NCBI RefSeq assembly: GCF_017348835.2
Contig: NZ_CP071375.1
Source: Escherichia coli
Lineage (GTDB): Bacteria > Pseudomonadota > Gammaproteobacteria > Enterobacterales > Enterobacteriaceae
Length of the DNA: 64,000 nucleotides
Strand: one strand, 5' to 3'
Each line of letters starts with the position of its first letter. Position 1 is the stretch's first letter. Position numbers: made by a program. Positions 57,501 through 60,500 of the stretch are shown here, one piece after another.

Positions 57501-60500
57501 AGGCTGTCAACGAGCTGTGGGAACTCAAAATAAATGGCGTCGTTGATAAAACTGGTCACACCTGGTTTCTGGCTGGCGAAGGTGAATCCCGGGTAACCGA
57601 AGAGCGGCCAGTAAAATCTGAAGCACAGGATATGCTGACCGGGGAGGTCGAACAAAAAGTTACCGCAGACATGATGATTGAGTTTATCGGTCAGGATGGG
57701 GCTAAAACGTGTGAGGAACTGGCGGGTAAGTTCGGTGTCAGTACTCGCAAGGTTGCTTCCACGCTGGCGGTGGTAACCGCAACGGGGCGGCTGGCACGCG
57801 TTAATCAGAACGGTAAATTTCGTTACTGCATGCCGGGCGATAATTTACCAGCAGAGCCGAAAGCCGCGCTGGTAACGGAAAGTGATGGTAAGGCCTTTCC
57901 TCAGCCAGCAGGTGCTGCGTTACCAGTCCGGGAAGCCGCAACACAGGAAGAAATTAAAACAGAAACTGTGGCGGACATTGTGCAGCCGTTGCCATCGTTT
58001 ACCGAAACGCAAGCAGATGAGCTGATTTTTCCGTCCCTTCGCAGGGCAAACCTGGCGCTGCGCAGGGCGAAAAGTGATGTTCAGAAGTGGGAGCGAGTCT
58101 GCGCCGCGCTGCGGGAGCTGAACAAGCACCGGGATATTGTTCGACAGATTACTGATTCTTCCCGCCGTGTTGTATCGGAAAAGTGATTGCCGGAGGCGCT
58201 TATGGCAAAAGTATTTACACAGGAAGAGCGGGAAAAAATTAAAGGGCAGGTTGTTGAGCTAGTACGCCGGAGTGGGCGCGAGACGTTACGGCAACTGGAA
58301 GCCAAGACAGGTGCGACAAGATATCTGATGAGCGTTCTTGCCAGAGAGCTGGTTGCCAGTGGCGATGTATACAACTCTGGTTACGGGTTATTCCCATCTG
58401 AACAGGCTCGTAAGGACTGGCAAAACGCCCGCAAAAAACTATCGAGGGCAAAACTGAAGAAACCGGTTGTGGTTGATCCTGACCTTATCTGGTCATTACC
58501 AGACGGAGAAATACGCCGCTATGACAGGCAATTGAACATAATTTGTAGTGAGTGCCGTAACAGTGAAGTGATGCAGCGAGTTTTGATATTTTACACAGGA
58601 GTAATGATGGAATAGTGAAAATAACATGAAACCTTTGGATTCTGGTGTTTCAGTGGATGGGAAAAGAGCAGATACATAGAAAATGAATAGCAATAATTCA
58701 CAGTCTGGATGTTGTTTGTATGCTTATAAAATGATCCTAGTATGCATTGCCGGAGTTGAATCAGCTCCAATGAAGAAACTGAGAGGAGTATTTAGAAGAT
58801 AGCTAAATGGATGTAATTATTAGTATCTAAAAAATAGTATTTTTGAAATGGGTCTAAGAACACAACAATGTACAAATGAGAAGTTATCTTTTAATATGTT
58901 CAAAGACCCATTAGGATTGATATCAGTTATGTTAGCTAGATTGATAAAGTGATTACATATTTTCTGTTATATGCTGAAATGAATAATGCTATTCCAGAGT
59001 GCAGCAGAGAAAGTCTCCTGATGATTGAGCTCTGGAAATTGTACAATAGAAAAATTACTGTATTTTTCTGTCAAAATATTTCTCAAAACAGATTCCGCTT
59101 TGATGGCTTCAGGATATAAAGATGCGGAGTAATCAAGGCTAAGATTTCCGTTAAGCAAGCATATACTTTTAGTGTGCTTTGATTCTGATATATCATCTTT
59201 AATTATCTTGATGATTCTTTCATTCTGCCATAGAAGTGATGGTGCAGATATATAATAATAGTTAAAGCATGAATTATTTTTTAAGCAATCAAGCACAAAA
59301 ATAGCACCTAGCGAGTGCCCCCATATACCGATTCTGGAACTGTTCGGAGCAATAGTACTAACCCATGGCATGATCTGAGTTAGTAATAATTCTCGGAAAG
59401 ACTGGCTTCCTCCACCAGTAAAGTAGATCCATGCTGGTTTAGAGTTATCAACAATAGCATTTTCACCATCAGGAGTATAATCGTAAGCACGGCGATGAAT
59501 GCTAAGGTTATTCCAAGATTCATAACCAAGTGTAACTAACACTGGTGGATTGGGTAGTGCATCAATAACAGGCAGAATATCAGAAATGTAATTGTTGGCA
59601 CTATTCCCATCAAGTATATAAAGAGTTGCATTATTTTTTTTAATGTTTTTTGGAGTAAAAATACATATTTTATATTTGGTGTCATGGTTAATTGAGTTAA
59701 ATATGCGTGTTTGACAATGAATGTCCATATGTTTAGTCATGCGTTCTCCCCATGAGCATTAAAGGATGCTTAAGATATGCTATGTCACTGATAAAAAATT
59801 TGTTGTGTGTGTTTAGTTATTTTATCTACCTCCATTATGATTTAAGACTGATATATGTTATCAGCAAAGGTACATCGTTATTATTTTACCTGTCAATACA
59901 TTTGATATTGATTATCGTTTACATCGCTTGCTTAGGAAATTGAAGGCAGGTAACTATCATGTCAATGAACTAACCCACAGTCTAACGTACTTCTTTCCCC
60001 AATCACCAACAACCAAATTCCTGTTATCACCATGAACCGCCCCGGAAATCCTGGAGACTAAACTCCCTGAGAAAGAGGTAAACAGGATGACTAAAAATAC
60101 TCGTTTTTCCCCCGAAGTCCGTCAGCGGGCGATTCGTATGGTTCTGGAAAGTCAGGATGAATATGACTCACAGTGGGCGGCAATTTGTTCCATTGCCCCA
60201 AAGATTGGCTGTACGCCGGAGACTCTGCGTGTCTGGGTTCGCCAGCATGAGCGGGATACCGGGAGTGGTGATGGTGGACTCACCACCGCTGAACGTCAGC
60301 GTCTGAAAGAGCTGGAACGTGAAAATCGTGAACTGCGCCGCAGTAACGATATCCTTCGCCAGGCTTCCGCTTATTTTGCGAAGGCGGAGTTCGACCGCCT
60401 CTGGAAAAAATAATGCCACTGCTGGATAAGCTGCGTGAGCAGTACGGGGTCGGACCGGTATGCAGCGAACTGCATATTGCCCCGTCAACGTATTACCATT

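What the first reader, a model, noticed from the sequence alone, without database searches (positions are those of the whole stretch)
58620..60032. Low-GC cargo gene encoding an alpha/beta-hydrolase esterase between replication module and nin region, with IS629 inserted about 290 bp upstream
A roughly 1.4-kb AT-rich block interrupts the otherwise approximately 50% GC prophage. It holds one intact 257-aa ORF with an esterase catalytic signature (GHSLG, conserved His near the C-terminus) and no signal peptide. The composition and its position at the usual lambdoid cargo site suggest independent acquisition. Its substrate and any role in the lysogen are unknown.
Basis: partly seen in the sequence, partly recalled or inferred. 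Interest (0 to 1): 0.7.

Follow-up and report, generated by a model that had tools for sequence, protein, structure and literature searches.

The report
Prophage-borne IroE-like siderophore esterase gene
A low-GC cargo gene in a lambda-like E. coli prophage encodes an intact enzyme most similar to the esterases that cut open enterobactin-type iron carriers, but without their export signal, so it probably helps the lysogen free iron inside the cell; its substrate has not been tested.

Summary
Window 58616-~59990 is the lowest-GC stretch of the window (33.8% against 49.6%). It holds one intact 257-aa ORF (58967-59740, minus strand), and IS629 (60033-61342) lies 292 bp upstream.

The gene is ECs_1077 of Sakai prophage Sp4. 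RefSeq calls it only "alpha/beta hydrolase", PHROGs lists it as unknown, and 470 of 5426 complete E. coli genomes carry it.

It belongs to the IroE/PfeE/BesA siderophore-esterase family. IroE is the best solved-structure match (E 5e-26), and the top 30 structural matches are all siderophore esterases. All four IroE catalytic residues are kept (Asp44, Arg84, Ser143, His240). Three alleles about 10% apart give dN/dS 0.16-0.25.

It differs from its nearest relatives (33% identity at most) by lacking their 40-50-residue leader, so it is probably cytoplasmic. No genuine phage genome record encodes a relative.

Two Fur-box-like sites lie in its conserved upstream region (P about 0.005). A published array lists Z1341, probably this gene, as induced together with ent, fep and chu genes.

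Most likely it is a lysogen-expressed, iron-regulated esterase that releases iron from catecholate siderophores. Substrate and regulation are inferred. This is a new member of a known family, of moderate interest.

The parts
58616..59990 (.). Low-GC (about 34%) single-gene cargo cassette, running from just after the DUF977 stop codon to the end of inter-allele homology upstream of the esterase gene
   Evidence: GC profile and window-wide minimum. The alleles are homologous across the 3' flank, the gene and about 250 bp of the 5' flank, and diverge beyond that.
58967..59740 (-). Esterase CDS of 257 aa (ECs_1077, WP_000160654, phrog_8493), a leaderless member of the IroE family. Catalytic codons: Asp44 59609-59611, Arg84 59489-59491, Ser143 59312-59314, His240 59021-59023.
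   Evidence: dN/dS is 0.16-0.25 between alleles.
59746..59751 (-). Shine-Dalgarno-like GGGGAG, 5 nt before the ATG
   Evidence: Read directly from the sequence; invariant in all alleles.
59834..59861 (-). Predicted sigma-70 promoter, ATAACA-16-CATAAT (9 of 12 matches). This is a consensus match only.
   Evidence: The number of such matches in the region equals the number expected by chance. The segment is nearly invariant across alleles.
59849..59863 (.). Fur-box-like palindrome TGATAACATATATCA, matching 11 of 14 positions of the 7-1-7 consensus and overlapping the predicted -35 element
   Evidence: invariant in three allele groups.
59903..59922 (.). Best Fur-box-like site of the whole window: 15 of 19 to GATAATGATAATCATTATC and 12 of 14 to the 7-1-7 consensus
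   Evidence: Allele C carries one change, GATAAT to GAGAAT.
58829..58912 (-). Long hairpin (58847-58912) followed by a U-run (58829-58834) downstream of the stop codon; a possible terminator
   Evidence: z -2.8. The arms are only partly conserved in allele C.
60033..61342 (+). IS629 (1310 bp) with target duplication CCA (60030-60032 and 61343-61345). It lies outside the conserved upstream region of the esterase gene.
58187..58615 (+). DUF977 / Ren-like / LygF gene, the left border of the cargo slot

Best explanation
The cassette is a prophage accessory gene (a 'moron') of foreign origin. It is transcribed against the phage early-right operon from its own upstream region, and it encodes an active serine esterase of the IroE/PfeE/BesA siderophore-esterase family.

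Shown:
- family membership by sequence and by fold;
- retention of the IroE catalytic set (Ser143-His240 dyad, and Arg84 held by Asp44);
- purifying selection;
- absence of any export signal.

Inferred:
- the enzyme acts in the cytoplasm, as Fes and BesA do;
- it hydrolyses the ester backbone of imported catecholate trilactone siderophores (enterobactin-type or pirated relatives), or their apo or linear forms, which helps release iron;
- it is expressed in the lysogen under iron limitation through Fur-box-like sites that overlap its predicted promoter.

The IS629 copy 292 bp upstream leaves the gene and its conserved upstream region intact.
For: Family:
- phmmer against solved structures gives IroE at E 5e-26 over residues 8-253, followed by BES, PfeE and the fungal siderophore esterases.
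- The AlphaFold model (pLDDT 90.8) has siderophore esterases as its top 30 Foldseek matches in the PDB (TM 0.72-0.82). E-values then drop by more than four orders of magnitude.
- In AFDB the nearest neighbours other than the protein itself are IroE/BesA-type esterases.

Active site:
- IroE Asp90, Arg130, Ser189 and His287 align with Asp44, Arg84, Ser143 and His240. The chain offset of 40 was checked in the alignment.
- Asp44 and Arg84 are invariant, and Ser143 and His240 nearly so, in 81 homologues.
- The dyad is cited from PMC10515146.

Selection: three allele groups with dS 0.12-0.32 give dN/dS 0.16-0.25. All eight intact divergent copies are 257 aa long with the four residues kept.

No leader:
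- Homologues have a median of 43 extra N-terminal residues, including a hydrophobic stretch and a conserved PLGPNIADxGS segment.
- No remnant of these is encoded upstream of the ATG.

Family function: homologue P0020 lies beside EntB/EntA-like genes, two TonB-dependent receptors and a FecCD-type transporter.

Regulation:
- Two of the eight best Fur 7-1-7 matches in the 64-kb window fall in the 292-bp upstream region. The chance of two or more is 0.005 in dinucleotide-preserving shuffles.
- The best 19-mer match of the window is also there (P 0.004).
- This segment is more conserved between alleles than synonymous sites are.

Expression lead: Z1341 of CP-933M rose 2.5-fold with entD/E/F, fepC, exbB and chuA/S/T/U/W when EHEC was grown with HEp-2 cells (PMC2654852). 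Gene-order counting from Z1324, Z1326 and Z1344 (PMC2907692; Sakai order) makes Z1341 this gene or its immediate neighbour.
Against: - No substrate has been tested.
- The nearest relatives are at most 33% identical. Most of them (Pantoea, Duffyella, metagenomic) stand alone, away from siderophore genes.
- Nothing else on the prophage is iron-related.
- E. coli already has the cytoplasmic esterase Fes, so the benefit is unclear.
- The Fur sites are consensus matches in AT-rich DNA, and the stronger one is weakened in allele C.
- The promoter match is no better than chance.
- The Z1341 mapping is not verified.
- The gene is dispensable in some lineages. IS629 splits the CDS in O26:H11 11368 and separates the gene from its upstream region in O157:H7 strain 9234. 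One IMG/VR copy is frameshifted.
- The acidic residue found in 43 of 81 homologues (column of Ser201) is absent.
- Pfam, NCBIfam and PADLOC give no significant family.
Confidence: 0.55

Rival explanations
1. It is an active IroE-fold esterase whose real substrate is not a siderophore, for example another ester or depsipeptide metabolite met in the gut. It would then have been recruited from the siderophore-esterase family to a different job.
For: Identity to any characterised enzyme is only 27-31%. Most close relatives are orphan genes away from siderophore loci. The family-typical GHSYGG is GHSLGA here, and the common Glu (column of Ser201) is missing. The wider PF00756 superfamily includes many non-siderophore esterases (ranks 31-50).
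Against: Every characterised member of the subfamily that shares the invariant Asp/Arg pair is a siderophore esterase. The Fur-like sites and the possible co-induction with ent, fep and chu genes point to iron.
Confidence: 0.25
2. It is a phage-host conflict gene for superinfection exclusion, defence or counter-defence. This would fit its position next to the Ren-like exclusion gene in a slot that holds defence-like cargo in other phages.
For: The slot after DUF977/LygF/Ren-like carries a kinase fragment, an FtsH-like gene and an S8 peptidase in vB_EcoS-683R6, and a methyltransferase in HannyBb. The gene has typical moron orientation and low GC.
Against: There is no PADLOC match. No viral structural analogue scores above TM 0.57. 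No partner gene is present; the cassette holds a single gene. The enzyme's fold and catalytic residues are those of siderophore esterases.
Confidence: 0.07
3. It is silent or decaying foreign cargo, for example repressed as AT-rich DNA, with no present role in the lysogen.
For: GC is very low at 34%. There are three independent IS629 insertions in or beside the cassette, one of which destroys the CDS in O26. One copy is frameshifted. No literature on the gene was found.
Against: dN/dS is 0.16-0.25 across alleles that have diverged by dS up to 0.32, and length and catalytic residues are intact. Of 470 genomes, 457 carry a copy at least 99% identical that is annotated as a CDS. The upstream region is conserved.
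Confidence: 0.08
4. It is a type III secreted effector, like many low-GC leaderless cargo genes of EHEC lambdoid prophages.
For: The gene is low-GC, has no Sec signal and sits on an EHEC prophage. Z1341 is possibly induced on contact with epithelial cells alongside esc genes.
Against: Only about 8 N-terminal residues precede the first strand of a compact, confidently folded domain, which leaves no room for a disordered secretion or chaperone-binding region. The gene lies in the early region, not in the effector loci near the tail genes. The fold is that of a bacterial siderophore esterase.
Confidence: 0.03

Closest known systems
IroE (salmochelin/enterobactin trilactone hydrolase of the iroBCDEN locus; PDB 2GZR/2GZS)
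   Same: It is the best match by sequence (E 5e-26, 27% identity over the whole domain) and by fold (TM about 0.8). It has the same lid-less alpha/beta-hydrolase core and the same Ser-His dyad with an Arg/Asp pair.
   Different: IroE has an N-terminal membrane anchor and acts in the periplasm (my own knowledge of Lin 2005 and Larsen 2006; those papers are not held), and it is encoded with siderophore genes. The prophage protein has no leader, stands alone in a phage cargo slot, is 34% GC, and reads GHSLGA where IroE reads GHSYGG.
PfeE (Pseudomonas aeruginosa) and Cee (Campylobacter), periplasmic ferric-enterobactin esterases
   Same: Same fold and subfamily (PfeE E 1.5e-11 by sequence, TM 0.78-0.82). 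Both hydrolyse ferric enterobactin to release iron (PMC8001512).
   Different: Both are periplasmic and sit next to their receptor gene (PMC8001512). The prophage protein is leaderless and has no receptor gene beside it.
BesA / BES (Bacillus ferri-bacillibactin esterase; PDB 2QM0)
   Same: Same subfamily (E 9e-13, TM 0.81), and leaderless. It is therefore the closest analogue for a cytoplasmic mode of action.
   Different: It is Gram-positive and chromosomal, identity is about 20%, and it is less similar to the prophage protein than IroE is.
Fes / IroD (cytoplasmic enterobactin/salmochelin esterases of E. coli)
   Same: Same presumed compartment and reaction. The catalytic domains are distantly related (Foldseek E about 1e-9).
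   Different: Fes has an additional N-terminal lid domain and a Ser-His-Glu triad (PMC10515146). Target TM is only 0.47, and the prophage protein is 257 aa against about 400.
Fur-regulated prophage cargo in EHEC (the stx1 promoter of Stx1 phages)
   Same: It is a lysogen-expressed phage accessory gene with an iron-responsive operator (my own knowledge). It is an analogue for the proposed regulation.
   Different: It is a toxin, not an iron-acquisition enzyme. Fur control of the esterase is only predicted here.

Membership tests
IroE/PfeE/BesA-type siderophore esterases | Lid-less alpha/beta-hydrolase fold closest to solved siderophore esterases | tested here: met
   AlphaFold model pLDDT 90.8. 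Foldseek PDB ranks 1-30 are all siderophore esterases, TM 0.72-0.82. phmmer gives IroE at E 5e-26.
IroE/PfeE/BesA-type siderophore esterases | Nucleophile Ser in G-x-S-x-G and catalytic His (IroE Ser189/His287) | tested here: met
   Ser143 in GHSLG and His240 align with them. They are conserved in 80 and 79 of 81 homologues and in all intact alleles.
IroE/PfeE/BesA-type siderophore esterases | Arg oxyanion residue anchored by Asp (IroE Arg130/Asp90; role recalled from Larsen 2006) | tested here: met
   Arg84 and Asp44 align at chain positions 90 and 50 of 2GZR and are invariant in 81 of 81 homologues. Their geometry in the model could not be inspected.
IroE/PfeE/BesA-type siderophore esterases | Hydrolysis of a siderophore ester backbone | not testable with these tools
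   This needs an enzyme assay.
Periplasmic proteobacterial branch (IroE, PfeE, Cee) | N-terminal signal peptide or membrane anchor | tested here: not met
   The ORF cannot extend upstream. The N-terminus is not hydrophobic, while homologues carry a median of 43 extra residues. No remnant is encoded upstream.
Periplasmic proteobacterial branch (IroE, PfeE, Cee) | Linkage to siderophore receptor, transport or biosynthesis genes | tested here: not met
   The neighbours are phage replication genes, a DUF977 gene and sok/hok. One homologue, P0020, has such linkage.
Fes/IroD cytoplasmic esterases | N-terminal lid domain plus Ser-His-Glu triad | tested here: not met
   The protein is a single 257-aa domain. 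Fes matches only over its C-terminal domain (target TM 0.47). No aligned acidic residue is present.
Pfam PF00756 (Putative esterase) | Significant match to the family HMM | tested here: inconclusive
   E 0.013 over residues 81-161 only. Distant homologues do carry PF00756.
Fur regulon | Functional Fur box at the promoter and iron-dependent expression | tested here: inconclusive
   Two Fur-like sites, P about 0.005. There is a possible array signal for Z1341.
Lambdoid moron / cargo cassette | Foreign composition, own transcription signals, variable slot, not needed for phage growth | tested here: met
   GC is 34% against 50%. The gene has opposite orientation. The slot holds other cargo in other phages. 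The cassette is found with different replication modules. The promoter and terminator are only predicted.
Known anti-phage defence systems (PADLOC) | Match to a defence protein model | tested here: not met
   No PADLOC family at E up to 1.

The most novel reading that the evidence does not exclude
This would be the first siderophore-processing enzyme known to be carried by a temperate phage. It would be a Fur-controlled, lysogen-expressed cytoplasmic esterase that gives EHEC, which lack the iroA locus, a second route to strip iron from catecholate siderophores. It could include pirated siderophores that Fes handles poorly, and so would contribute to gut fitness of Sp4/CP-933M-type lysogens.
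Probability: 0.3. Interest if true: 0.6.

Novelty: new member of a known kind. Interest (0 to 1): 0.4.

Why it matters
Temperate phages of EHEC are known to carry toxins, effectors and sialate esterases, but not enzymes of siderophore metabolism. No genuine phage genome among 50,697 records encodes a relative of this protein, and no predicted viral structure resembles it closely.

If the enzyme does release iron from catecholate siderophores under Fur control, it would add iron acquisition to the traits spread by lambdoid prophages among O157, O26, O103, O121 and O145 strains. It would also give a named function to a gene present in about 9% of complete E. coli genomes that is currently labelled only "alpha/beta hydrolase".

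The claim can be tested directly with a purified protein and a fes mutant. If the substrate turns out to be something else, the gene is an ordinary orphan hydrolase moron.

Tried and rejected
- NCBIfam and PADLOC scans found nothing.
- PHROGs gave only an unnamed family, which is the gene itself.
- Pfam gave only a sub-threshold PF00756 match.
- A word-indexed search of 5.8 billion proteins found only E. coli copies and one distant hit. The exhaustive search of 1.84 billion representatives was needed to see the family, and it showed no relative between 33% and 83% identity, so the donor remains unknown.
- I looked for a degraded leader or signal peptide upstream of the ATG by tblastn with eight homologue N-termini and by three-frame translation. 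Only noise was found, so a recent 5' truncation is rejected.
- Genomic contexts of the nearest relatives were mostly uninformative.
- Protein search of the phage collection gave four hits. All were IroE-like matches (about 29% identity) in records that look like bacterial sequence filed as phage: a 691-kb Salmonella contig, two 232-305-kb contigs named Acinetobacter phage MD-2021a, and an unannotated 2.5-kb fragment.
- Literature searches for WP_000160654, ECs1077, IroE with prophage and siderophore esterase with prophage found nothing on this gene.
- The IroE papers (Lin 2005, Larsen 2006) are not held.
- Attempts to confirm that Z1341 equals ECs1077 from supplements failed. NC_002655 is not in the collections.
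- The small minus-strand ORFs in the 3' flank (58496-58770) are rejected as genes, because allele C has a 1-bp indel there.
- The sigma-70 scan gave no more promoter-like sites than chance.
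Full report
**Observation**

Window 58620-60032 is 33.8% GC and the ORF is 34.5% GC. The whole window and the neighbouring prophage DNA (52000-58600) are both 49.6% GC. Among all 1413-bp windows of the 64-kb sequence (mean 49.6%, sd 3.8%), the minimum lies at 58551-58601.

The block contains one long ORF, 58967..59740 on the minus strand, 257 aa. It starts at an ATG that follows GGGGAG by 5 nt. GHSLG is at residues 141-145 and a His at residue 240. The first 45 residues contain no hydrophobic stretch.

IS629 occupies exactly 60033-61342 (1310 bp) with a CCA target duplication, 292 bp upstream of the ATG.

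**Identity and distribution**

- The gene is ECs_1077 ("hypothetical protein") of the lambda-like prophage Sp4 of O157:H7 Sakai.
- RefSeq names it WP_000160654, "alpha/beta hydrolase".
- PHROGs holds it as phrog_8493, function unknown.
- It is present in 470 of 5426 complete E. coli genomes. In 457 the copy is at least 99% identical and in 13 it is 90-95% identical.
- The genomes listed in the search output are mostly O157:H7, O26, O103, O121 and O145 strains.
- The window itself matches strain PE164, including the IS junction.

**The cassette and its slot**

A 91%-identical allele sits in the same place, between the DUF977/Ren-like gene and sok/hokD, in a Rac-like prophage with different replication genes. 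Homology between the alleles covers three parts:

- the 3' flank, starting at the DUF977 stop codon;
- the gene itself;
- about 250 bp of the 5' flank.

Beyond that the sequences diverge. The DUF977 end itself is far more conserved than the cassette. The mobile unit is therefore a cassette of about 1.37 kb holding a single gene (58616-~59990).

**What the protein is**

Profile libraries say little:

- Pfam PF00756 reaches only E 0.013.
- NCBIfam and PADLOC give nothing.

Direct comparison with solved structures is clear:

- IroE (2GZR) matches at E 5e-26 over residues 8-253.
- It is followed by Bacillus BES, Pseudomonas PfeE and the fungal siderophore esterases.
- An AlphaFold model built on 84 sequences is confident (pLDDT 90.8, pTM 0.91).
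- Its 30 best Foldseek matches in the PDB are all siderophore esterases (TM 0.72-0.82). E-values then fall by more than four orders of magnitude to generic esterases and to Fes, which matches only through its C-terminal domain.

IroE uses a Ser189-His287 dyad (PMC10515146). From my recollection of Larsen et al. 2006, it also uses Arg130, held in place by Asp90, as the oxyanion residue. With the chain offset of 40 verified in the alignment, these four residues align with Ser143, His240, Arg84 and Asp44. Asp44 and Arg84 are invariant, and Ser143 and His240 nearly so, across 81 homologues.

**Is the gene alive?**

IMG/VR and the genome collection yield three allele groups (100%, 92% and 90% protein identity).

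- All eight intact divergent copies are 257 aa long with the four catalytic residues intact.
- Pairwise dS is 0.12-0.32 and dN/dS is 0.16-0.25. The protein is under purifying selection.

The gene is nevertheless dispensable in some lineages:

- IS629 splits the CDS in O26:H11 11368.
- Another IS629 copy lies 45 bp upstream of the ATG in O157:H7 strain 9234.
- One IMG/VR copy is frameshifted.

**How it differs from its relatives**

An exhaustive HMMER search of 1.84 billion representative proteins finds no relative between the E. coli alleles (at least 83% identity) and a broad family at 33% identity or less.

- Those relatives carry a median of 43 extra N-terminal residues: a hydrophobic leader plus a conserved PLGPNIADxGS segment. 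The prophage protein lacks both.
- The upstream DNA encodes no remnant of them.
- PfeE and Cee are periplasmic, whereas Fes is cytoplasmic (PMC8001512). IroE is also periplasmic (my own knowledge of Lin 2005 and Larsen 2006).

The prophage enzyme is therefore probably cytoplasmic, like BesA or Fes. It keeps the IroE-type core and has no Fes-type lid.

No genuine phage record encodes a relative. The four tblastn hits are IroE-like matches at about 29% identity in records that look like bacterial sequence filed as phage. The best predicted viral structure reaches TM of only about 0.55.

**Context of relatives**

One homologue (P0020, 39% identity over residues 22-192) lies beside EntB/EntA-like genes, two TonB-dependent receptors and a FecCD-type importer. 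The nearest Pantoea, Duffyella and metagenomic relatives are isolated genes.

The siderophore assignment thus rests on the characterised members of the family, not on the context of the closest relatives.

**Regulation (inferred)**

- The best match in the entire window to the 19-bp Fur box is 15 of 19, at 59904-59922. It lies in the gene's upstream region (P 0.004 in dinucleotide-preserving shuffles of that region).
- With the 7-1-7 form of the consensus, two of the eight sites in the window that score at least 11 of 14 fall in these 292 bp. They are 59903-59917 (12 of 14) and the palindrome 59849-59863 (11 of 14). The chance of two or more is 0.005.
- The second site overlaps the -35 element of a weak predicted promoter and is invariant across allele groups. 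The first carries one change in allele C.
- The segment 59830-59925 is more conserved than synonymous sites of the gene.

There is also a published expression lead. [quoted passage not shown] The same list includes entD/E/F, fepC, exbB and chuA/S/T/U/W (PMC2654852).

I mapped Z1341 by counting genes. The anchors are Z1324 (exonuclease), Z1326 (cell-division inhibitor) and Z1344 (endonuclease) from PMC2907692, set against the Sakai gene order. This places Z1341 on this gene or on the small ORF just upstream of it. I could not verify the mapping.

A hairpin followed by a U-run lies after the stop codon (z -2.8).

**Most likely mechanism**

The gene is a lysogen-expressed moron that encodes a cytoplasmic IroE-type serine esterase. 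I infer that it cleaves the ester backbone of catecholate siderophores to help release iron, probably under Fur control.

- Shown: fold, family, catalytic residues, purifying selection, lack of a leader, and the cassette nature of the locus.
- Inferred: compartment, substrate and regulation.

Rival explanations:

- an IroE-fold esterase acting on a different ester substrate (0.25);
- a phage-conflict gene (0.07);
- silent cargo (0.08);
- a type III effector (0.03).

**Novelty and score**

The gene is catalogued but unnamed, and I found no paper about it. It is a new, divergent, leaderless and phage-borne member of a known enzyme family, not a new kind of system.

Interest is moderate. It would be the first phage-carried siderophore esterase, it is directly testable, and it occurs in major EHEC lineages.

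Noticed in passing
window 60033-61342; L002 8387-9696; L035 2268-3575: There are three independent IS629/IS1203 insertions in or beside the esterase cassette. In this window and strain PE164 the IS lies 292 bp upstream of the ATG (target duplication CCA). In O157:H7 strain 9234 it lies 45 bp upstream (target duplication TGT). In O26:H11 11368 it is inside the CDS and leaves two pseudogene pieces. The AT-rich cassette looks like an IS629 target hot spot.
   Followed up: partly
window 51302-52611 (-): A second, identical-ended IS629 copy in the same prophage interrupts ydfB, next to the DicF RNA (50058-50109).
   Followed up: partly
window 61489-61655 and 61650-~62700: An IS481-family element (transposase ORF 61614-62687, minus strand) begins at 61650. 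That is 10 bp before the position of the hokD start codon in the intact locus L001. The hok coding region is therefore cut off from its sok/mok leader, which probably disables the toxin.
   Followed up: partly
L011 3231-6179 (phage vB_EcoS-683R6) and L012 3249-4232 (phage HannyBb): The same slot after the DUF977/LygF/Ren-like gene carries other cargo in free phages. One has a kinase fragment, an FtsH-like protein and an S8 peptidase, which looks like a possible defence module. The other has a DNA methyltransferase.
   Followed up: no
window 53600-54001 region and L001 1713-2191: The prophage immunity region carries a RelE/ParE-RelB toxin-antitoxin pair and a YdaT-family 'toxin' gene next to the repressor genes. 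These are further accessory genes of this Sp4-type prophage.
   Followed up: no
L001 9110-9191: There is a sub-threshold match to the isrK Hfq-binding sRNA family (27 bits against a gathering score of 50, E 0.004) just downstream of hokD in the intact prophage.
   Followed up: no
search_dna_similar hit H95 (NZ_CP124741.1): A 286.8-kb record filed as a plasmid of E. coli O157:H7 EDL933 carries the esterase gene at 100% identity. I did not examine what kind of record this is.
   Followed up: no
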